Positions 1 to 6,621 of a stretch of DNA of 6,621 nucleotides are shown here, piece by piece; position 1 is the first letter of the stretch, and each line of letters starts with the position of its first letter. Under the pieces are notes generated by a model. The model was not told where the DNA came from, did no database searches, and saw only the letters and a program-made list of their open reading frames with translations. A program made the position numbers and the translations under genes. Source of the DNA: a virus (Duplodnaviria > Heunggongvirae > Uroviricota > Caudoviricetes); the IMG/VR virus record IMGVR_UViG_2740892234_000004; one strand, given 5' to 3'.

Positions 1-9
1 CTCTCCCCC

Positions 10-41
10 AAATAAAAAGGCCTGCGATTACCAGCAGGCCT
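10..41 (-). terminator. Intrinsic terminator downstream of ren (tR2-like position)
   Basis: Inverted repeat AGGCCTGC (18-25) / GCAGGCCT (34-41) with 8-nt loop; on the minus strand the hairpin is followed by a U-tract (complement of AAATAAAAA at 10-18). Lies 26 nt past the ren stop (67-69). Confidence 0.7.
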
Positions 42-66
42 GTTATTAGCTCAGTAATGTAGATGG

Positions 67-357
67 TCATCTTTTAACTCCATATACCGCCAATACCCGT
101 TTCATCGCGGCACTCTGGCGACACTCCTTAAAAATCAGGTTCGTGCTCATCTTTCCTTCCCGTTCTTCCCTGGTAGCAAACCGGTAATACACCGTTCGCC
201 AGACCTTACCTTCGATAACCAGAAGACCTGCCCGTGCCATTTTAGCCGCGGCCTGATTTATGCTGGTTACTGTTGCGCCTGTTAGCGCGGCAACGTCCGG
301 CGCACAGAAGCTCTTGTGCGTCTCCAGATAATGAATAATTGCTTCTTTGCCCGTCAT
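67..357 (-). CDS. ren: Ren protein (lambda-type), 96 aa, complete
   Basis: Translation MTGKEAIIHYLETHKSFCAPDVAALTGATV...VYGVKR matches my recollection of lambda Ren almost residue for residue. Start ATG (355-357) overlaps the P stop (354-356) as ATGA, as in lambda. Stop TGA at 67-69. Confidence 0.85.
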   Translation of the reverse strand: MTGKEAIIHYLETHKSFCAPDVAALTGATVTSINQAAAKMARAGLLVIEGKVWRTVYYRFATREEREGKMSTNLIFKECRQSAAMKRVLAVYGVKR

Positions 358-391
358 AGACTTGCTCCTTTCAGTCCGAACTTAGCTTTGA
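354..391 (-). CDS. P: Replication protein P, extreme C-terminal fragment (truncated by N run)
   Basis: Reverse translation gives ...KAKFGLKGAS-stop, the lambda P C-terminus; the fragment ends at the N run 392-401. Confidence 0.75.
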
Positions 392-442
392 NNNNNNNNN
401 NATTATGCGTCCTCAGGTAATGAATAATTGCCTCTTTGCCCG

Positions 443-903
443 TCATACACTTGCTCCTTTCAGTCCGAACTTAGCTTTGATTTCTGCGATCTTCGCCAGA
501 GCCTGTGCACGATTTAGAGGTCTACCGCCCATGACAGGAAGTTGTTTTACTGGTTCAGGGATCGCCTCACCACGGTTAATTCTCGCAGTCATATGGACAA
601 GCTCATCTGCGGCCTTACGGCGTAATTCCGCATCAGTAAGCGCATTGGCCCGCATGTTCTGATACAGGTTGGTAACCAGCCAGTAGTGCGCGTTTGATTT
701 CCACGGATAAGACTCCGCATCCGGATACAGGCCTCGCTTCCGGCAATACTCGTAAACCATATCAACCAGCTCGCTGACGTTTGGCAGTCCGGCGATAACG
801 GATGCTTCTTCCCGGCACCATGCAACAAACTGCCCGGGTGATGGCAGAAATGGTCGATTCTGCCGACGGGCTACGCGCATTCCTGCGTTAACCTGTTCCA
901 TCG
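443..903 (-). CDS. P: Replication protein P (DnaB-loader), C-terminal ~150 aa plus stop; 5' end lost in N run. A second ren 5' fragment lies at 402-446
   Basis: Translation MEQVNAGMRVARRQNRPFLPSPGQFVAWCREEAS...ELVHMTARINRGEAIPEPVKQLPVMGGRPLNRAQALAKIAEIKAKFGLKGASV matches lambda P C-terminus. Stop at 443-445 overlaps a ren start ATG at 444-446; 402-442 reverse-translates to MTGKEAIIHYLRTHN (ren N-terminus, allele differing from 67-357). Confidence 0.85.
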
Positions 904-913
904 NNNNNNNNNN

Positions 914-1145
914 AATTTCTGCGATCTTCGCCAGCGCCTGAACACGATTTAGAGGTCTGCCGCCCATGACAGGAAGTTGTTTTACTGGTTCAGGTATCGT
1001 CTCACCACGGTTAATTCGCGCTGTCATACAGGTCAGTTCATCGGCAGCCTTGCGTCGTAATTCCGCGTCAGTCAGCGCATTGGCCCGCATGTTCTGGTAC
1101 AGGTTGGTAACCAGCCAGTAGTGCGCGTTCGATTTCCACGGATAA
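914..1145 (-). CDS. P: Replication protein P, internal fragment, second allele of the region 479-713
   Basis: About 90% identical at DNA level to 479-713, with multiple substitutions; encodes ...MRANALTDAELRRKAADELTCMTARINRGETIPEPVKQLPVMGGRPLNRVQALAKIAEI. Bounded by N runs on both sides. Confidence 0.8.
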
Positions 1146-1155
1146 NNNNNNNNNN

Positions 1156-1213
1156 GTTCTGGTCACGGTTAGCCAGACTCGCCGGGAAAGTTGCCAGTAA
1201 CTGGCTGAACACA
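1156..1213 (-). CDS. P: Replication protein P, short N-terminal-region fragment (third allele)
   Basis: Encodes VFSQLLATFPASLANRDQN; differs by substitutions from the equivalent stretches in 1224-1396 and 1407-1647. Confidence 0.7.
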
Positions 1214-1223
1214 NNNNNNNNNN

Positions 1224-1396
1224 TGGTGATCCCGTTTTCCCGGAAAGCCAGAACCCACTGGCGGCGGATTTCGTTCAGTTCATTCTGGTCCCGGTTAGCC
1301 AGGCTCGCCGGGAAAGTTGCCAGTAACTGGCTGAACACACCATTGATAATCTGCGCTACCTGCTGTACCTGCGGCTTTTCGTCGTACTGTTCCGGC
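1224..1396 (-). CDS. P: Replication protein P, N-terminal-region fragment
   Basis: Encodes PEQYDEKPQVQQVAQIINGVFSQLLATFPASLANRDQNELNEIRRQWVLAFRENGIT, i.e. lambda P residues around 24-80. Confidence 0.8.
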
Positions 1397-1406
1397 NNNN
1401 NNNNNN

Positions 1407-1647
1407 AGGTGATCCCGTTTTCCCGGAAAGCCAGAACCCACTGGCGGCGGATTTCATTCAGTTCGTTCTGGTCCCGGTTAGCCAGACTCGCCGGGAAAGT
1501 TGCCAGTAACTGGCTGAACACACCGTTGATGATCTGCGCTACCTGTTGTACCTGCGGCTTTTCGTCGTACTGTTCCGGCATGTTATTGGCGATCCGGCGC
1601 ATCTGCTCACGGTCAAAATTAACCATCTGTGCGGCGATGTTTTTCAT
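1407..1647 (-). CDS. P: Replication protein P, N-terminal 80 aa with start codon
   Basis: Encodes MKNIAAQMVNFDREQMRRIANNMPEQYDEKPQ... Start ATG at 1645-1647 overlaps the O stop (1644-1646) as ATGA. Confidence 0.85.
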
Positions 1648-1749
1648 AGCTCCACCCCGTAAATCCAGTCAGTGTTCGTCAGGTCGAGTTTTGGTTTTCC
1701 GGCTGTCACGCCAGCCTGTTGCTTGTTACGGTTGATTTCGAGTTGGGTC
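1644..1749 (-). CDS. O: Replication initiator O, C-terminal fragment with stop
   Basis: Reverse translation ends ...LDLTNTDWIYGVEL-stop, as for lambda O C-terminus; truncated upstream by N run 1750-1759. Confidence 0.8.
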
Positions 1750-1759
1750 NNNNNNNNNN

Positions 1760-1822
1760 GTTGGTGATCCGACGCATCTGCTCACGGTCAAAGTTAACCA
1801 TCTGTGCGGCGATGTTTTTCAT
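1760..1822 (-). CDS. P: Replication protein P, 5' fragment with start codon (another allele)
   Basis: Encodes MKNIAAQMVNFDREQMRRI...; ATG at 1820-1822 overlaps the O stop at 1819-1821. Confidence 0.75.
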
Positions 1823-1999
1823 AAATCCACCCCGTAAATCCAGTCAGTGTTTGTCAGGTCGAGTTTTGGTTTTCCAGCTGTCACGCCAGCCTGTTGCTTG
1901 TTACGGTTGATTTCGAGTTGGGTCCACTTGTCGCGGAGTTTGGCCGGACTTAGCACGTTACCGGACCAGAAGTTGTCCTGGCATGCCCAGCGGAACAGC
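1819..1999 (-). CDS. O: Replication initiator O, C-terminal fragment with stop (allele ending ...DWIYGVDL)
   Basis: Encodes LFRWACQDNFWSGNVLSPAKLRDKWTQLEINRNKQQAGVTAGKPKLDLTNTDWIYGVDL-stop, matching lambda O C-terminus. Confidence 0.85.
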
Positions 2000-2009
2000 N
2001 NNNNNNNNN

Positions 2010-2586
2010 GATCCACCCCGTAAATCCAGTCTGTGTTTGTCAGGTCGAGTTTTGGTTTGCTGGCTGTCACGACTGCCTGTTGCTTGTTACGGTTGATTTC
2101 GAGCTGGGTCCACTTGTCGCGGAGTTTGGCCGGGCTCAGCACGTTACCGGACCAGAAGTTGTCCTGGCATGCCCAGCGGAACAGCACGCACATGTCGCGG
2201 TGGTTACGTCCGTCACGTTCACGCATCAGGCGGATATCGTTAGCCCACCCAGCAAAATTCGGTTTTCTGGCTGATGGTGCGATAGTCTTCACCATGTCAA
2301 ACATCCACTCTGCGGCGGTCAGGTCTTCTGCTGTCCCCCACTTGCTGCCGCTCTGAATTGCAGCATCCGGTTTCACCACAGAAAGGTCGTTTTCTGGCTG
2401 GTCAGAGGATTCGCCAGAATTCTCTGACGAATAATCTTTTCTTTTTTCTTTTGTAATAGTGTCTTTTGTGTCCCCCTGTTTTGAGGGATAGCAATCCCCC
2501 AATTTGAGGGATGTTTTATCCCTCGTTTTAGGGGATTTTCCCTCGTTTTGAGGGATGCACCATTCTGAGATGTTTTTATTTGGTCC
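2010..2586 (-). CDS. O: Replication initiator O (lambda-type), internal fragment of ~190 aa containing the origin; no start or stop inside the fragment
   Basis: Encodes GPNKNISEWCIPQNEGKSPKTRDKTSLKLGDCYPSKQGDTKDTITKEKRKDYSSENSGESSDQPENDLSVVKPDAAIQSGSKWGTAEDLTAAEWMFDMVKTIAPSARKPNFAGWANDIRLMRERDGRNHRDMCVLFRWACQDNFW..., matching lambda O; bounded by N runs. Confidence 0.85.
2431..2555. repeat. Lambda-type replication origin: four ~17-18 bp iterons plus adjacent AT-rich region, inside O
   Basis: Iterons TCCCCCTGTTTTGAGGGA (2471-2488), TCCCCCAATTTGAGGGA (2495-2511), TCCCTCGTTTTAGGGGA (2519-2535), TCCCTCGTTTTGAGGGA (2539-2555), each with dyad symmetry, preceded by AT-rich 2431-2470. Architecture matches ori-lambda. 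Confidence 0.8.
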
Positions 2587-2596
2587 NNNNNNNNNN

Positions 2597-3172
2597 CGCA
2601 GCATCCGGTTTCACCACAGGAAGGGCATTTTCTGGCTGGTCAGAGGATTCGTCAGAATTCTCGGACGAAAAAGGTTTTATATTGTCTTTTGTTAGTTTGT
2701 CTTTTGTGTTTACCTGATTCGGGTAAGTGCCTTTACCTGATTTGGGTAAACTTTTCTTACCTGACTCAGGTAAATTTACCTCTTTCAGGTAAACTTTATT
2801 TTTCTTACCTGATTCGGGTAATGTTGACCATTCACTGACCACATTATTGATGCCGATATTCCGCCCGCTCTGAATAAGAATCCCACGCTTTACCAGAACG
2901 CTTTTTGCAGCAGAACACTTGTGCGGCAATATCCCGGTCAATTCGGAAAGTTGCTCGTTGCTCACCCAATCCAGTTTTTTATTAAAGCCATATGTTTTGC
3001 GCATGACAGCCAGGAAGACCAGAAGCTGGTGCTGTTTTAATCCGGCCAGCATTACAGCTTCCAGCAACTCATTTGCAATGCGCGTATAACCATCATCGAG
3101 ATCTGCCACGCGCGGCTCCTTTTGTGCCACATCCGGCACTGGAAAATTGAATATCTCAGCAGTGTTTGCCAT
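2597..3172 (-). CDS. O-like replication initiator, N-terminal DNA-binding domain of a non-lambda specificity; 3' end lost in N run
   Basis: ATG at 3170-3172 preceded by GGAGG (about 4 nt spacer). Encodes MANTAEIFNFPVPDVAQKEPRVADLDDGYTRIANELLEAV...MRKTYGFNKK..., parallel to the lambda O N-terminus (…NVADLDDGYARLSNMLLEA…LRKTYGWNKP…) but diverged. The linker SSENSDESSDQPENALPVVKPDAA is near-identical to lambda O. The ORF-track start at 3262 is an upstream in-frame extension I do not believe. Confidence 0.8.
2668..2821. repeat. Second, distinct iteron-type replication origin: five 17-bp TTACCT..AGGTAA iterons plus AT-rich region, inside the O-like gene
   Basis: Iterons TTACCTGATTCGGGTAA (2710-2726), TTACCTGATTTGGGTAA (2733-2749), TTACCTGACTCAGGTAA (2757-2773), TTACCTCTTTCAGGTAA (2776-2792), TTACCTGATTCGGGTAA (2805-2821); AT-rich stretch about 2668-2709. 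Iterons encode the repeated LPESGK peptide in the O-like protein. Confidence 0.75.
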
Positions 3173-3258
3173 AATTCCTCCCGCAATGAGTGTGTTACGA
3201 TTTGCACCTGAAAGTCGGTTCTGTTCGCGCAGACCGGCTTTCGCCATTTCTGAACCTG

Positions 3259-3804
3259 TCATATTGCCCCCAGCATGGTGGTGACCATCGCCATCAGTGG
3301 ACCAGCCAGATCCGGGTCCACACGAAACATCGACACAATGCCTTCACTCATCTCCTTCAGTTTCTGGTGGCGTGGTGCGTTGAGAATGACAGCCTGTTTT
3401 GCCTCACTGAGTTCCTTTTCCATTTCAGCCAGCCGAGCCATGAAGCTATCCTGCCCAACCAGGTGGCCGCGATATTCCAGCGGTAGTACCGCCAGAATTG
3501 CCGGGGTCAGTTCACGCACGTTATTTCGGTATTTTTCAGAATCGAATTTGTTATCGAGGAAGCGGAACAGCTTCTGGCGTGCACGGCTGACATCATCAGG
3601 GAAATCGATGGTGCCGCCGCCCTGCTCCCGATACTCATTCACAATGAGTGCGGCAACAACATCCTGATTATCTGCAGCCGACCAGGCGCGAACGGCATCA
3701 CGGATTTTTTCGTGGCCTGGCGCCTGTTTTGTTTGAGAACGATTTATCACCGCAGTCGGGCTAAATCCGCTAGTCTGTTGGTATGTAAGTGATTGCATAG
3801 TCAT
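3259..3804 (-). CDS. YdaT-like protein in the cII position (lysogeny-establishment regulator analog), 181 aa
   Basis: Located between cro-like gene and O, where lambda has cII, but far longer than lambda CII. Segments AALIVNEYREQGGG and LTPAILAVLPLEYRGHL resemble what I recall of Rac-prophage YdaT (recollection, not searched). Start could be the ATG at 3802-3804 or the ATG two codons downstream (3796-3798), which has better SD spacing. Confidence 0.6.
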   Translation of the reverse strand: MTMQSLTYQQTSGFSPTAVINRSQTKQAPGHEKIRDAVRAWSAADNQDVVAALIVNEYREQGGGTIDFPDDVSRARQKLFRFLDNKFDSEKYRNNVRELTPAILAVLPLEYRGHLVGQDSFMARLAEMEKELSEAKQAVILNAPRHQKLKEMSEGIVSMFRVDPDLAGPLMAMVTTMLGAI

Positions 3805-3828
3805 TGCCTTATCAGTTAACGCCGCAGT

Positions 3829-4056
3829 TTAGGCGGCAGAATTACTCGCGTTAAACAATGGTGCGAGGTCGGGACGAATATCTGCTGGTTTAATCTTTCC
3901 ACCAGTGGCTGAGACAATTTTCATTACATAGCGGGCATCAATTCCGCCACCGTGTAGCCAACGCCAAACAGTGGGTTGGGCTACACCGCATAGATCTGCC
4001 AGTCGTTTTTGACTACCTGTAATACTGATTGCGAGTTGAATGGTTTGATTTGTCAT
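3829..4056 (-). CDS. Cro-like / YdaS-like HTH transcriptional regulator, ~75 aa
   Basis: Small basic protein MTNQTIQLAISITGSQKRLADLCGVAQPTVWRWLHGG... with a helix-turn-helix signature; diverges from the cI-like gene across a promoter/operator region. AGGA about 7 nt upstream of ATG 4054-4056. The ORF track begins at a TTG (4060-4062) two codons upstream. Confidence 0.75.
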   Translation of the reverse strand: MTNQTIQLAISITGSQKRLADLCGVAQPTVWRWLHGGGIDARYVMKIVSATGGKIKPADIRPDLAPLFNASNSAA

Positions 4057-4087
4057 TATCAATTCCTATTGGTATTGCAATGAATAG

Positions 4088-4116
4088 ATAATAGCAATGC
4101 GTATTAACCCAATCAA
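4088..4116 (-). promoter_or_regulatory. PR-like promoter driving the cro-like gene
   Basis: On the minus strand: -35 TTGATT (complement of 4111-4116), 17-nt spacer, -10 TATTAT (complement of 4088-4093); about 25 nt upstream of the cro-like RBS. Overlapped by operator-like motifs. Confidence 0.45.
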
Positions 4117-4125
4117 TAGCAAAAC
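4090..4125. promoter_or_regulatory. Operator-like motifs (OR): AATAGCAATGCGTATTAA (4090-4107) and AATAGCAAAAC (4115-4125)
   Basis: Both motifs recur downstream at 6013-6050 (16/18 and 11/11 identical); they overlap the -10 and -35 of the PR-like promoter. A perfect palindrome ATTGCAAT lies at 4074-4081. Confidence 0.4.
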
Positions 4126-4130
4126 GTGTT

Positions 4131-4166
4131 TTGACCATCAATACGCAAGCGTATAAATTAAAACTT
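4131..4166 (+). promoter_or_regulatory. PRM-like promoter for the repressor, likely producing a leaderless transcript
   Basis: -35 TTGACC (4131-4136), 15-17 nt spacer, -10 TATAAAT (4152-4158); predicted start about 4165-4167 coincides with the ATG at 4167, and there is no SD, as for lambda cI from PRM. Confidence 0.45.
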
Positions 4167-4859
4167 ATGAAAAAAGAAACTCTTGCTGATCGCTTAAACC
4201 TAGCGATGGAACAATCTGGAATGTCTCAAGGCGCTCTTGCAAAGGCGTCTGGCGTAGCTCAACCCACAATCTGGAGACTGACAAGCGGCAACGCGCGCGG
4301 CTCAACAAAAATTGTTGAAATAGCTAATGCATTGGGTGTTCGAACTGAGTGGCTCTCATCAGGCATAGGCCCGATGAGAAATGACGGTCAACAATCAGGG
4401 AAGCCTGCTGTCAACCATTCCAAATACTTCAAGATTGACGTTCTTGATATAGAAGTCAGTGCCGGGCCGGGTGTCATCAATCGTGAGTTTGTAGAAGTTC
4501 TACGCTCGGTTGAGTACTCGTTTGACGATGCTCGTCACATGTTCGATGGCAGGAAGGCGGAAAATATCCGCATCATTAACGTGCGTGGTGACAGCATGTC
4601 AGGAACGATCGAACCAGGTGATCTGCTGTTCGTTGATATCACGGTTAAATCTTTCGACGGTGATGGTATCTATGCGTTTCTGTACGACGACACAGCCCAT
4701 GTAAAGCGTCTGCAAATGATGAAGGATAAGCTGCTGGTTATCTCTGATAACAAGAGCTACTCACCTTGGGACCCGATCGAGAAAGACGAGATGAACCGGG
4801 TGTTCATCTTCGGTAAGGTTATTGGGAGCATGCCGCAGACGTATAGGAAGCATGGGTAG
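4167..4859 (+). CDS. cI-like prophage repressor: N-terminal HTH plus C-terminal S24 (LexA-like) autopeptidase domain; 230 aa from ATG 4167
   Basis: HTH region LADRLNLAMEQSGMSQGALAKASGVAQPTIWRLTSG; candidate Ala-Gly cleavage site (VSAGPG, codons 4461-4466); catalytic Ser in GDSM (4593-4595) and Lys in VKRL (4704-4706). The ORF-track start at 4131 is a TTG that is itself the -35 hexamer, so I prefer ATG 4167. Confidence 0.85.
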   Translation: MKKETLADRLNLAMEQSGMSQGALAKASGVAQPTIWRLTSGNARGSTKIVEIANALGVRTEWLSSGIGPMRNDGQQSGKPAVNHSKYFKIDVLDIEVSAGPGVINREFVEVLRSVEYSFDDARHMFDGRKAENIRIINVRGDSMSGTIEPGDLLFVDITVKSFDGDGIYAFLYDDTAHVKRLQMMKDKLLVISDNKSYSPWDPIEKDEMNRVFIFGKVIGSMPQTYRKHG

Positions 4860-4932
4860 CCATACAATAGAAGTTTTAAGATTTAAGACAATATCGTAAA
4901 TTAACTGTATATGTGATCAGGTGAATGCCATA

Positions 4933-5874
4933 ATGGATGCGGGCAACAATTCGGAAACCAATGATATGAAGTTCAGGATAGTATACGACGGTCCGGCACT
5001 GGAAACGCATGAAATGAACGTGCGAGACCTTGCTCCTGCCCTTCTATCACTATCAGATGCATTAGAGGAAGCCGGTAAAACTCTCTACGGAAACAAGACT
5101 GTTGTTTCTGTAAAAGTCAATGCATCATTTAAAGCTGGCTCATTTGGAATAGATCTGGTTGCCTCATCTACATCTTGGTTCAAACAGGCTGTTGATTTTT
5201 TATCCGGCGATTCAGCAACAGCCGCTGCGAATTTGATTGCTTTTATTGGACTCTGTCCTGGTTCTAAAGAAAAAATATGCAAAGGCCTAATTCAACTGAT
5301 AAAATGGATAGGTCCAAGGAAAATAAAAAAATTACACAATTTGCCTGATAGCAACATCGAAGTCTTTGTTGATGACGAAAGCGAGATCTACGACAGTAAC
5401 GTTATTGAACTTTATAAAAATATTAAACTTCGCTCTTCATTACAAGAAGTTATAAGTAAGCCATTAGAGCAGGAAGGCATTGACAGCTTTGCCTCTACTG
5501 TCGATGATGGTTTGACATTCATGACGATCAACAAGCAAGAAGCACATTATTTCAAAGTCAATCTACCAGCAGAATCAATAATTTCAGAGTACACAGTAGA
5601 GAAAGCCCTTCAAATTAAAAATATTTCCTTCAATGAAGGAAGCCGGTGGCGGTTTTCTGATGGTGCCAGTAGCTTTTTGGCTGAAATAAAAGACCAGAAA
5701 TTCATCAGCGATATTGATAACAACACCTTAAATTTTTCTAAAGGTGATATGTTACTTGTAGATTTAAAAGTAACTCAATATATGATCGGAGATGCCATAA
5801 AAACCATATTCGAAATTGAGCATGTAAAAAAACAGTTGAATCCTCAAAGGCAAATAGATCTTCCATTCGAATAA
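4933..5874 (+). CDS. Orphan protein of unknown function (313 aa from ATG 4933; 317 aa from GTG 4921) in the rexAB-equivalent slot downstream of the repressor; candidate lysogenic-conversion or phage-exclusion moron
   Basis: Long uninterrupted ORF, same strand as repressor, 61-73 nt downstream of its stop. AGGTGA (4918-4923) lies 9 nt before ATG 4933; another candidate start is ATG 4966 (MKFRIVYDG...). Followed immediately by a strong intrinsic terminator. Visibly AT-rich. I recognise no catalytic motif, Walker box or transmembrane segment by eye. Confidence 0.7.
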   Translation: MDAGNNSETNDMKFRIVYDGPALETHEMNVRDLAPALLSLSDALEEAGKTLYGNKTVVSVKVNASFKAGSFGIDLVASSTSWFKQAVDFLSGDSATAAANLIAFIGLCPGSKEKICKGLIQLIKWIGPRKIKKLHNLPDSNIEVFVDDESEIYDSNVIELYKNIKLRSSLQEVISKPLEQEGIDSFASTVDDGLTFMTINKQEAHYFKVNLPAESIISEYTVEKALQIKNISFNEGSRWRFSDGASSFLAEIKDQKFISDIDNNTLNFSKGDMLLVDLKVTQYMIGDAIKTIFEIEHVKKQLNPQRQIDLPFE

Positions 5875-5879
5875 AGATA

Positions 5880-5906
5880 CCCGGCCACCGTGCCGGGTTT
5901 TCTTTT
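5880..5906 (+). terminator. Rho-independent terminator ending the repressor/moron transcription unit
   Basis: Stem CCCGGC (5880-5885) / GCCGGG (5892-5897), 6-nt loop, then TTTTCTTTT (5898-5906); begins 6 nt after the stop codon at 5872-5874. Confidence 0.8.
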
Positions 5907-6012
5907 GCCTCCCCTCATCACACAAACCGTTCAAAAAACCACCACGACCTCGCTTCAGTTATCGCTATGCGATTCAAGTCACAAAATTAATTCTTTTTGC
6001 CATCAAACATTT

Positions 6013-6078
6013 AATAGCAAAACACATCTAACAATAGCAATAAGTATTAATATCACCAATAGCAATAGCTATTATCAC
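6013..6078. promoter_or_regulatory. OL-like operator cluster with possible PL-like promoter
   Basis: AATAGCAAAAC (6013-6023), AATAGCAATAAGTATTAA (6033-6050), AATAGCAAT (6058-6066), plus TATCACC twice (6051-6057, 6072-6078). Weak rightward promoter candidate: -35 TTAATA (6047-6052), 17 nt, -10 TATTAT (6070-6075). Confidence 0.35.
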
Positions 6079-6350
6079 CATGTCGCAACAACACAACGAT
6101 ACGGCAACCACCTGATTCACCGTTGCGATGACCGCTTAGATCCGCAGCTTGAATTTCAGCAGGCTCCGGGGAGTGCGAGGGGTGAAACGGACGCGTGAAC
6201 GTCGGTGTGACCAGCTGAAATCAACTCAACACTTCATACCTCAGTTGCTTCAACGAGGCGACTTAGTTATGACAACCGGCGGCCATCCACCGCCAGATAC
6301 TGCGCAACCCCTTATTTGTTCAGCAGCCCAGCTTACGGGCAGGAGTTTTT

Positions 6351-6557
6351 ATGGTTCATCAACATTACGGAACGCAGACCGTTAATCGCGGTGCGGTCAT
6401 GCCAGGAATGCTGGTCAAACACAAAGATGGAACCTGGACTGCATCAGCTAATTTACGCGGACGGCTTTATCTGCATCGCGGCATCGAGCGCACTTATACC
6501 CGTGATTTGCTCGTGGAAGTTTTTCTCGACGGACGCGGCAACGGCCTGAATCACTAA
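6351..6557 (+). CDS. Hypothetical small protein, 68 aa
   Basis: ATG at 6351 preceded by AGGAG (6341-6345) with 5-nt spacer; stop TAA 6555-6557. Lies downstream of the OL-like region, in the position of a first leftward early gene. No recognisable motif; not Arg-rich like lambda N. Confidence 0.5.
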
Positions 6558-6621
6558 TCCCCTTTCCTGTTTACCTAATCAGCCTGGCATTTCGCGGGCG
6601 ATATTTTCACAGCCATTTTCA

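What the first reader, a model, noticed from the sequence alone, without database searches (positions are those of the whole stretch)
4860..5910. The orphan gene is a low-GC compositional island with moron-like architecture
Hand counts on a few 60-nt lines inside the ORF give roughly 25-45% G+C (for example the lines starting at 5281 and 5401 are about 25-27%), against about 48% in the repressor and 55-60% in O/P. The gene is preceded by an AT-rich spacer (4860-4920) with weak promoter-like hexamers (AAGACA 4885-4890, 17 nt, TATATG 4908-4913) and followed by its own terminator. That promoter-gene-terminator layout with foreign composition is typical of a horizontally acquired moron that can be transcribed independently of PRM.
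Basis: seen in the sequence. Interest (0 to 1): 0.6.

Follow-up and report, generated by a model that had tools for sequence, protein, structure and literature searches.

The report
Swappable AT-rich prophage cargo gene
The low-GC stretch is a real, recently exchanged cargo cassette in the well-known variable slot just after the repressor gene of a lambda-like E. coli prophage; it encodes an uncharacterised candidate anti-phage protein preceded by a conserved SOS-type (LexA-like) operator, and the terminator after it belongs to the phage backbone, not to the gene.

Summary
The G+C dip is real: the ORF is 37.7% G+C (GC3 34%) against 47% for cI and 51-55% for most of O/P. Its edges are sharp, at the cI stop codon (4859) and just before the hairpin at 5879. 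The gene is not an orphan: it belongs to a large family (NCBIfam LAPAL_fam, PADLOC PDC-S42, PHROG 3243), an untested anti-phage defence candidate. The terminator is not its own: among 86 related loci, 16 different AT-rich cargo types (31-40% G+C) lie between the same cI 3' end and the same terminator, as with lambda cI-rexAB-tImm. At least seven types match defence or candidate-defence models. The cassette is 99.7-100% identical across prophages whose flanks are 85-98% identical, which indicates recent lateral exchange. The proposed -35 hexamer is not conserved. The proposed -10 is the left arm of a conserved 20-nt LexA-box-like palindrome (4903-4922) that accompanies the gene in 9 of 10 enterobacterial homologue loci. 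Most likely this is an immunity-operon cargo gene read from PRM, with additional SOS-responsive control. Protein function is unproven; only a C-terminal OB-like fold is recognisable. The kind of element is ordinary; the SOS box is a new detail.

The parts
4167..4859 (+). cI-type repressor (HTH plus S24 peptidase; 230 aa from the RefSeq start, mechanical ORF from TTG 4131). It forms the left boundary of the cargo slot.
   Evidence: Pfam Peptidase_S24 1.5e-18 and HTH_3 1.5e-06; RefSeq start in L016; Ala-Gly at residues 99-100 and GDSM at 141. Homology with phages carrying other cargo ends at its stop codon, TAG 4857-4859.
4860..5878 (+). Exchangeable AT-rich cargo cassette (leader plus one gene), 1019 nt, about 37% G+C.
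   Evidence: Breakpoints; 99.7-100% identity in 34 E. coli genomes against 85-98% for flanks; one of 16 cargo types in the same slot.
4860..4932 (+). 73-nt leader between the cI stop and the cargo start codon (28.8% G+C). It is cassette-specific and contains no terminator.
   Evidence: Alignment A1; terminator scan; leader composition.
4897..4902 (+). TAAATT, a possible -10 hexamer abutting the box (weak; the -35 is poor).
   Evidence: 'GTAAATT' is conserved immediately 5' of the box in the six leaders where the box ends 10 nt before the ATG; positions -8 to -1 have identity 0.61. It was not reported by the promoter scan. Inference only.
4903..4922 (.). LexA-box-like palindrome AACTGTATATGTGATCAGGT (CTG-N10-CAG).
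   Evidence: 14.5 bits on a matrix built from 21 E. coli SOS boxes (their range 12.9-27) and the best site in the window; P=0.0005 in shuffled leaders and 0.003 in dinucleotide-shuffled cargo. Conserved at a fixed distance from the ATG in 9 of 10 enterobacterial homologue loci. Arms are 92-94% identical against 29% for the upstream leader and 42% for third codon positions. It matches the uvrA box at 14 of 18 positions (PMC3009722).
4919..4924 (+). Shine-Dalgarno AGGTGA, 8 nt before ATG 4933.
   Evidence: Read from the sequence.
4933..5874 (+). Cargo gene: 313-aa LAPAL-family / PDC-S42 / PHROG 3243 protein (identical to WP_000338655.1). Soluble and acidic; LAPAL motif at residue 33; C-terminal OB-like barrel at about 215-302.
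5879..5907 (+). Backbone intrinsic terminator (ACCCGGC-caccgt-GCCGGGT followed by TTTCTTTTG), equivalent in position to lambda tImm. It is shared by all cargo types and is not part of the cassette.
   Evidence: Scan; conserved in 7 of 7 phages with different cargo and in the 86 loci with 16 cargo types.
6033..6075 (+). OL/PL-like region: an operator-like repeat shared with OR, plus a promoter-like site, which starts the kil-gam-bet-exo operon.
   Evidence: The 17-mer at 4090-4106 recurs at 6033-6049 with 2 mismatches; promoter-like TTAATA-17-TATTAT at 6047-6075; downstream genes in L016.
6351..6557 (+). kil (cell-division inhibitor), the first gene beyond the slot on the conserved right flank.
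   Evidence: phrog_294 1.3e-37; RefSeq annotation.

Best explanation
Window 4860-5878 is a 1.02-kb AT-rich cargo cassette. It occupies the variable slot between the repressor gene and OL/PL of a lambda-like E. coli prophage, the position where lambda carries rexAB. SHOWN: the slot is bounded by two conserved backbone elements, the 3' end of cI and an intrinsic terminator. Between them, related phages carry at least 16 unrelated AT-rich cargos, all on the cI strand, and many match known or candidate defence or toxin-antitoxin modules. This particular cargo has recently moved between diverged prophages, including ones of a different immunity type. The cassette consists of a 73-nt leader and one 313-aa gene of the LAPAL / PDC-S42 family. 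In more distant relatives (41-78% identity) the gene again sits downstream of a prophage repressor of another type (directly after it in four backbones, with one small ORF between in a fifth). INFERRED for expression (about 0.8): in a lysogen the gene is co-transcribed with cI from PRM, because it has the same orientation, there is no intervening terminator, and the transcript would end at the shared terminator before PL. INFERRED for control (about 0.55): the conserved LexA-type box at 4903-4922, overlapping the ribosome-binding site and abutting a weak -10-like TAAATT, adds SOS control. LexA would damp read-through and/or repress a weak leader promoter, so RecA activation, by DNA damage, prophage induction or an infecting phage, would raise expression. 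INFERRED for function (about 0.5): the product is a soluble anti-phage protein (superinfection exclusion or abortive infection) that acts by binding rather than catalysis, through a C-terminal OB-like barrel, since no enzymatic domain is detectable. The low G+C is a property of the whole slot's cargo pool and not a peculiarity of this gene.
For: Boundaries and shared terminator. Slot diversity: 16 cargo types in 86 loci, 618-1783 nt, 31-40% G+C, all genes co-oriented with cI and ending a few nt before the terminator. Defence content of the slot: PDC-M11 (annotated GevT/GevA), PDC-M66 (HipA/HipD), PDC-M63, a CapP/RmrA-like protease, a PD-T4-6/mad6 kinase, and PDC-S42 here. Recent exchange: 0-3 mismatches in 1019 nt against 2-15% divergence in flanks, and the same protein behind four cI alleles. 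No plus-strand terminator between cI and the gene; OL/PL lie beyond the terminator. Repressor linkage of homologues in other backbones; lysogeny-module position in Gram-positive phages. SOS-like box; reference boxes checked against PMC3009722. Defence-candidate status: each PDC family has at least one member embedded in BREX, DISARM or type I RM (10.1101/2024.01.29.577857); an Acinetobacter homologue lies two genes (about 1.2 kb) from a BstA_C-domain protein. [quoted passage not shown] Fold: OB-like C-terminal domain.
Confidence: 0.6

Rival explanations
1. One reading: an autonomous moron with its own constitutive sigma-70 promoter (AAGACA-17-TATATG) and its own terminator, transcribed independently of PRM in the lysogen.
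For: AT-rich foreign composition. The leader belongs to the cassette and not to the backbone. In Pantoea, where no repressor precedes the homologue, it has the box upstream and a terminator of its own downstream, so the family can exist as a self-contained unit.
Against: The terminator is shared by 16 cargo types. The hexamers match at 8 of 12, lack the T at position 6 of the -10, and were not picked up by a scan that found fewer sites than chance expects. AAGACA is not conserved in homologous leaders (upstream identity 0.29), and TATATG is conserved only as part of the palindrome. No empty slot was seen among 86 loci, so this is cargo replacement and not insertion.
Confidence: 0.1
2. The conserved 20-27-nt block is not a LexA operator. 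It could be the site of another factor, a Dam/GATC-dependent switch, or a DNA-level self-immunity element like the aba element at the 5' end of bstA.
For: The right arm GATCAGGT, with GATC in 9 of 10 loci, is conserved beyond what LexA needs. In BstA the anti-BstA element spans 29 bp upstream plus the first 34 bp of the gene, a comparable position (PMC8585504). The score is at the low end for SOS boxes.
Against: The left arm TACTGTATAT is a perfect LexA half-site. The conservation pattern of two arms with a variable centre fits CTG-N10-CAG. The Pantoea copy lacks GATC yet is a near-consensus SOS box at 22.2 bits. The window's box equals the validated uvrA box at 14 of 18 positions, including TCAGG. 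Strong LexA-like boxes also occur in two unrelated cargo types of the same slot.
Confidence: 0.15
3. The protein is an SOS-controlled antirepressor or induction factor for prophages whose repressors cannot self-cleave, as in Gifsy-type phages (own knowledge: Lemire et al. 2011).
For: In four other backbones the gene follows short HTH repressors of 130-155 aa without an S24 domain, and three of these (L141, L143, L148) carry the SOS-like box; the Salmonella one (L146) does not.
Against: In this window the repressor has an S24 domain with Ala-Gly and GDSM motifs, so it should self-cleave. Sibling phages with the same cI carry unrelated cargo in the slot, so the gene is dispensable for induction. 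There is no similarity to known antirepressor families in Pfam. The family also occurs outside phage immunity regions, and PADLOC built its model from members embedded in BREX, DISARM or RM systems.
Confidence: 0.07
4. The protein serves the phage itself at induction, as an OB-fold single-strand-DNA-binding or recombination/replication accessory factor made when SOS is on.
For: OB-fold matches are mostly SSB, RPA and PriB. There is putative SOS control. The gene lies next to the kil-gam-bet-exo operon.
Against: It shares a slot with toxin-antitoxin, kinase and other defence-type cargo and is present in only 34 of 5426 E. coli genomes. It lies upstream of the terminator, in the repressor operon and not the PL operon. 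The OB similarity is weak and generic.
Confidence: 0.1
5. It is a virion structural protein, as the NCBIfam name 'putative phage structural protein' suggests.
For: The NCBIfam NF053583 name. One homologue follows Mu-type head genes (portal, Mu F, Phage_tail_S) on a rearranged Mu-like prophage.
Against: In every lambdoid and Gram-positive phage context examined it lies in the immunity or lysogeny module and never among structural genes. In the Mu-like case it sits at a junction with convergent early genes. There is no fold match to structural proteins.
Confidence: 0.02

Closest known systems
Lambda cI-rexA-rexB-tImm immunity operon (rexAB abortive-infection cargo)
   Same: Same slot and layout: cargo immediately downstream of cI on the same strand, no terminator in between, a terminator before OL/PL, and the PL operon beyond. 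PMC8585504 explicitly names this interval as the rexAB site and a mosaic hotspot.
   Different: One gene instead of two. No PADLOC hit other than PDC-S42 and no membrane segment, so it is not a RexA/RexB homologue. It carries an SOS-type box in the leader. Lambda's second promoter for rexB (PLit; own knowledge) has no demonstrated counterpart here.
BstA of Salmonella prophage BTP1, with its aba self-immunity element
   Same: A single-gene prophage defence located directly downstream of cI, presumed to share the repressor promoter, followed by a Rho-independent terminator, and carrying a short functional DNA element at its 5' end (PMC8585504). An Acinetobacter LAPAL homologue lies two genes from a BstA_C-domain gene.
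   Different: No sequence similarity (only PDC-S42 hit in PADLOC). The 5' element here looks like a LexA operator and not like aba. No function has been demonstrated.
Classical morons of lambdoid phages (promoter-gene-terminator units with atypical composition; own knowledge: Juhala et al. 2000, Cumby et al. 2012, the latter cited in PMC8585504)
   Same: An extra, compositionally foreign gene between conserved backbone genes, found in only some relatives.
   Different: The terminator is a backbone element shared by all cargos. No empty slot was seen, so this is replacement and not insertion. An independent promoter is unproven.
SOS-regulon operators such as the uvrA box, and LexA-controlled prophage genes (own knowledge: 186 tum, Gifsy antirepressors)
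   Same: CTG-N10-CAG palindrome with a perfect left half-site and 14 of 18 identity to the uvrA box. It is placed over the translation and putative transcription start region and is conserved across genera.
   Different: LexA binding and SOS induction were not tested. The right arm is over-conserved and contains GATC. It sits inside an operon already driven by PRM.
PADLOC PDC-S42 / NCBIfam LAPAL_fam (NF053583) / PHROG 3243
   Same: Full-length, high-scoring member of all three; LAPAL motif at residue 33.
   Different: None structurally. The family itself has no tested function, and the 'structural protein' name conflicts with the genomic contexts seen here.
Other cargos of the same slot, e.g. 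the PD-T4-6-type Ser/Thr kinase, GevT/GevA and HipA/HipD modules
   Same: Identical flanks, orientation, size class and AT-richness.
   Different: Unrelated proteins. Most of them lack an SOS-like box; 12 of 16 types have none at or above 14.5 bits.

Membership tests
Moron (autonomous promoter-gene-terminator insertion) | Extra gene between backbone genes that are conserved in relatives | tested here: met
   Flanks are conserved and the cargo differs in six phages and 86 loci. However, the slot was never empty, so this is replacement and not insertion.
Moron (autonomous promoter-gene-terminator insertion) | Nucleotide composition unlike the surrounding phage genome | tested here: met
   37.7% against 47-55% G+C; GC3 34% against 44-66%.
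Moron (autonomous promoter-gene-terminator insertion) | Own promoter | tested here: inconclusive
A conserved operator-like box with an adjacent weak -10 (TAAATT) hints at a regulated promoter. No consensus promoter was found in three loci.
Moron (autonomous promoter-gene-terminator insertion) | Own terminator | tested here: not met
   The hairpin at 5879-5907 is identical behind 16 different cargo types.
Moron (autonomous promoter-gene-terminator insertion) | Expressed from the repressed prophage | not testable with these tools
   Needs transcript mapping in a lysogen.
LAPAL_fam (NF053583) / PDC-S42 / PHROG 3243 | Full-length HMM match above the curated cut-off | tested here: met
   NCBIfam 270.4 bits (cut-off 60), profile positions 1-290 of 292; PADLOC 287.5 bits, 3-300 of 302; PHROG 389.9 bits.
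LAPAL_fam (NF053583) / PDC-S42 / PHROG 3243 | LAPAL sequence motif near the N-terminus | tested here: met
   RDLAPALLSL, with LAPAL at residue 33 of the 313-aa protein. D32, L33, A34, P35, A36 and L37 are invariant or nearly so in 50 homologues.
Anti-phage defence system | Genomic association with defence genes or hotspots | tested here: met
   It shares its slot with at least six PADLOC-matching cargo types. PDC families are defined by embedding in BREX, DISARM or RM type I. An Acinetobacter homologue lies near a BstA_C gene.
Anti-phage defence system | Reduces phage plating or burst when expressed | not testable with these tools
   PDCs are explicitly untested, and no paper was found on PDC-S42 or LAPAL.
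Lambda-type immunity-operon cargo (rexAB-like placement) | Located between cI and a terminator that precedes OL/PL, co-oriented with cI, with no intervening terminator | tested here: met
Lambda-type immunity-operon cargo (rexAB-like placement) | Homology to RexA or RexB | tested here: not met
   PDC-S42 is the only PADLOC hit at E up to 1; no Pfam hit; no transmembrane segment.
LexA (SOS) regulon member | CTG-N10-CAG operator scoring within the range of validated boxes | tested here: met
   14.5 bits against a range of 12.9-27, and the best site in the window; P=0.0005 (leader) and 0.003 (cargo). Reference sites were checked in PMC3009722.
LexA (SOS) regulon member | Operator conserved in orthologous loci | tested here: met
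   Present in 9 of 10 enterobacterial loci at a fixed offset; arms 92-94% identical against 29% for the neighbouring leader. Absent in distant homologues.
LexA (SOS) regulon member | LexA binding and RecA-dependent induction | not testable with these tools
   Needs EMSA or footprinting, and reporter or RNA assays in lexA mutants.
OB-fold nucleic-acid-binding proteins | Five-stranded beta-barrel with a helix between strands 3 and 4 that superposes on known OB domains | tested here: inconclusive

The most novel reading that the evidence does not exclude
The enterobacterial LAPAL / PDC-S42 gene is a single-protein anti-phage or anti-competitor system whose expression is gated by LexA. On this reading, SOS wiring is a recurrent design of cargo in the lambdoid cI-PL slot: 4 of 16 cargo types carry LexA-like boxes against about 0.2 expected. 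Prophages would then hold part of their defence arsenal in reserve and release it when RecA is activated, by an infecting phage or during simultaneous induction of rival prophages in polylysogens such as STEC. The protein would work through a new three-domain architecture ending in an OB-like sensor domain.
Probability: 0.3. Interest if true: 0.6.

Novelty: new member of a known kind. Interest (0 to 1): 0.4.

Why it matters
The kind of element is already known: accessory and defence cargo in the repressor-proximal hotspot of lambdoid prophages (rexAB, bstA, stk-like kinases). The composition finding therefore mainly shows that the slot's whole cargo pool is AT-rich and exchanged by recombination between two short conserved arms, the cI 3' end and the terminator. 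Two points are worth taking forward. First, the slot offers at least nine cargo types with no match in PADLOC, which makes them cheap candidates for new defence genes. Second, an untested and very large protein family (more than 5000 clusters at 50% identity) comes with a strongly conserved SOS-type operator in Enterobacterales. That gives a concrete, testable handle on when the gene is expressed and so on what it is for. If LexA control is confirmed, it would connect prophage defence cargo to the SOS response, which bears on competition among the many lambdoid prophages of pathogenic E. coli.

Tried and rejected
- Pfam on the protein, on 50 homologues and at lenient thresholds gave nothing above noise: DUF7946 in 6 of 50 at E about 0.01, plus single chance hits.
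- A profile search against PDB sequences gave 0 hits.
- A search for domain fusions across 1.84 billion representatives found none: the top 150 hits are essentially all single-block proteins of about 300 aa.
- Rfam on the window gave nothing meaningful.
- Literature searches: 'PDC-S42' returned 0 papers, 'LAPAL' returned only unrelated uses, and 'GevT/GevA' was swamped by unrelated terms. The paper describing the PhiR lambdoid phage panel could not be identified.
- Promoter scans around the box in the window, Pantoea and E. coli homologue loci found no consensus sigma-70 site.
- A CRP half-site reading of TGTGA in the box was rejected by inspection of the alignment: only 3 of 10 leaders keep it and there is no second half-site.
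- The GTG at 4921 and the ATG at 4966 were considered as start codons and rejected in favour of ATG 4933, on the basis of the Shine-Dalgarno spacing, RefSeq and database proteins of 313 aa, and the ATGGAT/ATGGAA start conserved in homologues.
- The idea that the SOS box is a family-wide feature was rejected: it is absent from 32 other beta/gammaproteobacterial loci.
Full report
CONTEXT. The window is the immunity region of a lambda-like prophage, read on the leftward strand. On the minus strand lie ren-, P- and O-like genes, a YdaT/CII-like gene (3259-3804) and a YdaS/Cro-like gene (3829-4062). On the plus strand lie a cI-type repressor with HTH and S24 peptidase domains (4131/4167-4859), the ORF in question, and kil (6351-6557). 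Positions 2597-6621 form one contiguous piece that is 99.95% identical to a prophage next to dsdC in E. coli 2013C-3264 (NZ_CP027544), where kil is followed by gam, bet and exo. Positions 1-2596 are eight overlapping fragments of ren-P-O joined by runs of ten N. That part is a scaffolding artefact and does not touch the finding.

The ORF is 37.7% G+C with GC3 of 34.3%, and the spacer 4860-4920 is 26.2%. By comparison, cI is 47.3% (GC3 51%), kil 51.7%, P-like 54.6% and O-like 45-51%. The region 4860-5910 is 37.8% against 49.7% for the rest of the window. The lowest-GC 954-nt window of the whole sequence falls inside the ORF. The quoted 60-nt lines are 28% and 23% G+C. The hexamers and the hairpin are at the stated coordinates.

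WHERE THE ISLAND BEGINS AND ENDS. Six deposited phages share the cI and kil flanks but carry other genes in between: PhiR30_1, 4A7, Perceval, PhiR47_2 (annotated GevT/GevA), PhiR5_1 (annotated HipA/HipD) and PhiR26_1. Pairwise BLAST and alignments show that homology stops at the cI stop codon (4858/4859) and resumes at 5867-5880. All seven sequences share the hairpin CCCGGC-N6-GCCGGG followed by TTTTCTTTT. The spacer therefore belongs to the cassette and the terminator belongs to the backbone.

I used the terminator as an anchor in IMG/VR, which gave 80 more loci. Among the 86 loci that have both anchors there are 16 unrelated cargo types. They are 618-1783 nt long and 31-40% G+C. All their genes are co-oriented with cI and end a few bases before the terminator, and no slot is empty. 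Low G+C is thus a property of the whole cargo pool of this slot.

An operator-like 17-mer from OR (4090-4106) recurs at 6033-6049, next to a promoter-like site at 6047-6075, so OL/PL lie beyond the terminator. This is the lambda arrangement cI-rexAB-tImm | OL-PL. The literature already describes the cI-N interval as a mosaic hotspot that holds rexAB and bstA and presumably uses the repressor promoter (PMC8585504).

HORIZONTAL EXCHANGE. The 1019-nt cassette occurs in 34 of 5426 complete E. coli genomes, always at 99.6% identity or better. In five of these prophages it shows 0-3 mismatches, while cI is 96.4-97.8% identical, the terminator-PL interval 85-94% and kil 96-98%. One of the five has a different immunity type with unrelated cro and cI N-terminus. 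In L019, differences run up to 4850 and start again at 5907, with none in between. Recombination in the conserved arms is the obvious mechanism. This is an inference.

THE GENE IS NOT AN ORPHAN. It matches NCBIfam NF053583 'LAPAL motif-containing putative phage structural protein' (270 bits, cut-off 60), PADLOC PDC-S42 (3.4e-86) and PHROG 3243 (1.3e-116). It has no Pfam domain. The identical 313-aa protein (WP_000338655.1 / P0001) starts at ATG 4933, eight bases after AGGTGA, and homologues keep an ATGGAT or ATGGAA start. A profile of 50 homologues finds 5238 clusters at 50% identity among 1.84 billion representatives. The best 150 are nearly all about 300 aa, each matched in a single block covering almost the whole protein, and none carries a sizeable unmatched region that would suggest a fused domain.

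PDC families are untested candidates. They were chosen because at least one member is embedded in a BREX, DISARM or type I RM system (10.1101/2024.01.29.577857). No paper mentions PDC-S42 or the LAPAL family.

GENOMIC CONTEXTS OF HOMOLOGUES. Homologues of 56-78% identity in four other backbones again lie immediately after the prophage repressor. In those backbones the repressor is a short HTH protein without an S24 domain, and kilR lies downstream in three of the four (the fourth contig ends at the gene). A 41%-identical homologue lies downstream of an S24 repressor, one small ORF away. In Lactobacillus phage A2, a Listeria phage and a Bifidobacterium phage, the homologue lies in the lysogeny module next to the integrase. 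In Acinetobacter it lies at a prophage edge two genes from a BstA_C-domain gene. None of these positions is among structural genes, so the NCBIfam name looks wrong. The only contrary hint is a rearranged Mu-like prophage.

THE SLOT IS A DEFENCE HOTSPOT. Besides PDC-S42, cargo types match PDC-M11A/B, PDC-M66A/B, PDC-M63A/B, a second PDC-M66B-like pair, a CapP/RmrA-like protease and a PD-T4-6/mad6-type kinase. Nine types match nothing in PADLOC.

The protein is acidic and has no membrane segment. Invariant residues are mostly hydrophobic or glycine, with D19 and D272 as the invariant charged ones. There is no catalytic signature. A binding or sensing role is therefore the most economical guess, and it is only a guess.

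A CONSERVED SOS-TYPE BOX IN THE LEADER. When I compared leaders across backbones, one block stood out: (G)TAAATT followed by TACTGTATAT-NN-GATCAGGT. In the window it is AACTGTATATGTGATCAGGT at 4903-4922.

I built a weight matrix from 21 E. coli LexA boxes. I recalled these from memory and then checked them against Tables 4 and 7 of PMC3009722. On this matrix the site scores 14.5 bits, within the reference range of 12.9-27 and the best in the window. The probability is 0.0005 in shuffled leaders and 0.003 in dinucleotide-shuffled cargo. It equals the uvrA box at 14 of 18 positions, and the four differences lie in the loosely constrained centre.

Nine of ten enterobacterial homologue loci carry the box, ending either 10 nt or 27-29 nt before the ATG. 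These come from Pseudocitrobacter, Trabulsiella, Yersinia, Serratia, Lonsdalea, Pantoea, E. coli and others. Scores run from 9.1 to 22.2 bits. The Pantoea copy, TACTGTATAAAAAAACAGGT, is close to the consensus. Only 0.5% of 2177 control windows reach 12 bits.

Pairwise identity is 0.94 and 0.92 in the two arms, 0.47 in the 3-nt centre and 0.29 in the upstream leader. Within the gene it is 0.42 at third codon positions and 0.78 at first and second positions. This is the footprint of a dimeric DNA-binding site under strong selection.

CAVEATS ON THE BOX. The right arm is more conserved than LexA needs and carries a GATC. No consensus sigma-70 promoter flanks the box; there are only weak -10-like hexamers, TAAATT 5' of the box in one leader class and TATAAT or TATTAT 3' of it in the other. 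The box is missing in the Salmonella homologue and in 32 other beta/gammaproteobacterial loci, though one Burkholderia locus has a 20.7-bit box 162 nt upstream.

Two unrelated cargo types of the same slot also contain very strong LexA-like boxes (22.0 and 23.6 bits), and none of 3200 shuffled cargos reached 20 bits. A fourth type has a 14.6-bit site. That makes 4 of 16 types against about 0.19 expected.

MOST LIKELY MECHANISM. Shown: this is a cargo cassette in the repressor-proximal hotspot, bounded by the cI stop codon and a shared terminator, and recently exchanged.

Inferred: it is transcribed with cI from PRM in the lysogen. A LexA-type operator in the leader adds SOS responsiveness, by relieving a roadblock and/or a weak internal promoter. 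The product is a non-enzymatic anti-phage protein.

An AT-rich cassette in E. coli may also be subject to H-NS silencing, as reported for other prophage immunity cargo (10.64898/2026.09.05.749240). I could not test this. Rival explanations and their weights are given separately.

VERDICT. The 'orphan' label and the 'own terminator' are wrong. The proposed promoter is better explained as part of a conserved SOS-type operator. The element is a new, uncharacterised member of a known kind. Its main value is as a well-defined, testable candidate, together with a slot that holds several other unknown cargos.

Noticed in passing
window 1-2596: Eight runs of exactly ten N (392, 904, 1146, 1214, 1397, 1750, 2000, 2587) separate short fragments that map to overlapping positions of the same ren-P-O region at 90-100% identity. 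This looks like scaffolded alternative copies from several lambdoid prophages, so ORFs called across these joins are artefacts.
   Followed up: yes
L001 (PhiR30_1) cargo position 199-218; L024 cargo position 256-275; L027 cargo position 758-777: Two unrelated cargo types of the same slot carry very strong LexA-like boxes: TACTGTAATTTTATACAGCT at 22.0 bits and AACTGGTTATTTATACAGTT at 23.6 bits. Both appear to lie inside or at the start of coding regions. A third type has a 14.6-bit site. None of 3200 shuffled cargos reached 20 bits.
   Followed up: partly
window 4915-4922 and homologous leaders (L141, L143, L149-L153): The right arm of the box is conserved as GATCAGGT, with a Dam site (GATC) in 9 of 10 loci. 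This exceeds what LexA recognition requires and is not explained by the Shine-Dalgarno role in the leader class where the box ends 27 nt before the ATG.
   Followed up: partly
window 4933-5874; NCBIfam NF053583: The NCBIfam product name 'putative phage structural protein', now propagated in RefSeq, conflicts with all the lambdoid and Gram-positive phage contexts seen, where the gene lies in the immunity or lysogeny module.
   Followed up: yes
L229:7001-7927 (Nitrospinota MAG): A 38%-identical homologue sits between carA and carB, the small and large subunits of carbamoyl-phosphate synthase. It overlaps the carA stop by 4 nt, and no phage genes are within 7 kb.
   Followed up: no
L018 (E. coli STEC17-183), equivalent of window 4934; hits H20/H69 (E. 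coli STEC388): In STEC17-183 the start codon is ACG instead of ATG, and RefSeq calls a shorter CDS. In STEC388 the cassette is split by an IS1A element. These may be signs of occasional inactivation.
   Followed up: partly
search of 50,697 deposited phage genomes: No isolated phage genome in the INPHARED collection encodes a close relative of this protein; there are only three Gram-positive phages at 27-33% identity. Yet the cassette is present in 34 complete E. coli genomes and several IMG/VR prophage contigs.
   Followed up: no
L010-L012 (Acinetobacter pittii), 6001-9067: The homologue forms a small island with a HIRAN-domain protein and a BstA_C-domain protein at a prophage edge, which could be a local defence cluster.
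   Followed up: no
slot cargos L029, L023, L024, L003, L006, L027, L028, L032, L097: Nine of the 16 cargo types in the cI-terminator slot have no PADLOC match. Several encode small membrane-like or lipoprotein-like products. They are unexplored candidates for new prophage accessory or defence genes.
   Followed up: no
window 6033-6075 and 4090-4106: The operator-like repeats AATAGCAAT(G/A)(C/A)GTATTA are shared between OR and the region beyond the terminator. The mechanical 102-aa ORF at 5890-6198 spans the terminator and this OL/PL region and is probably not a gene.
   Followed up: partly
L141:4946-4970, L143:4960-4985: Rac-like backbones with short repressors carry the same CCCGGCC-N-GCCGGG terminator family after the LAPAL gene (CCCGGCCACCGAGCCGGG and CCCGGCCATCGCGCCGGG). 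This suggests that the terminator-to-kil side of the backbone is shared across otherwise different lambdoid groups.
   Followed up: no
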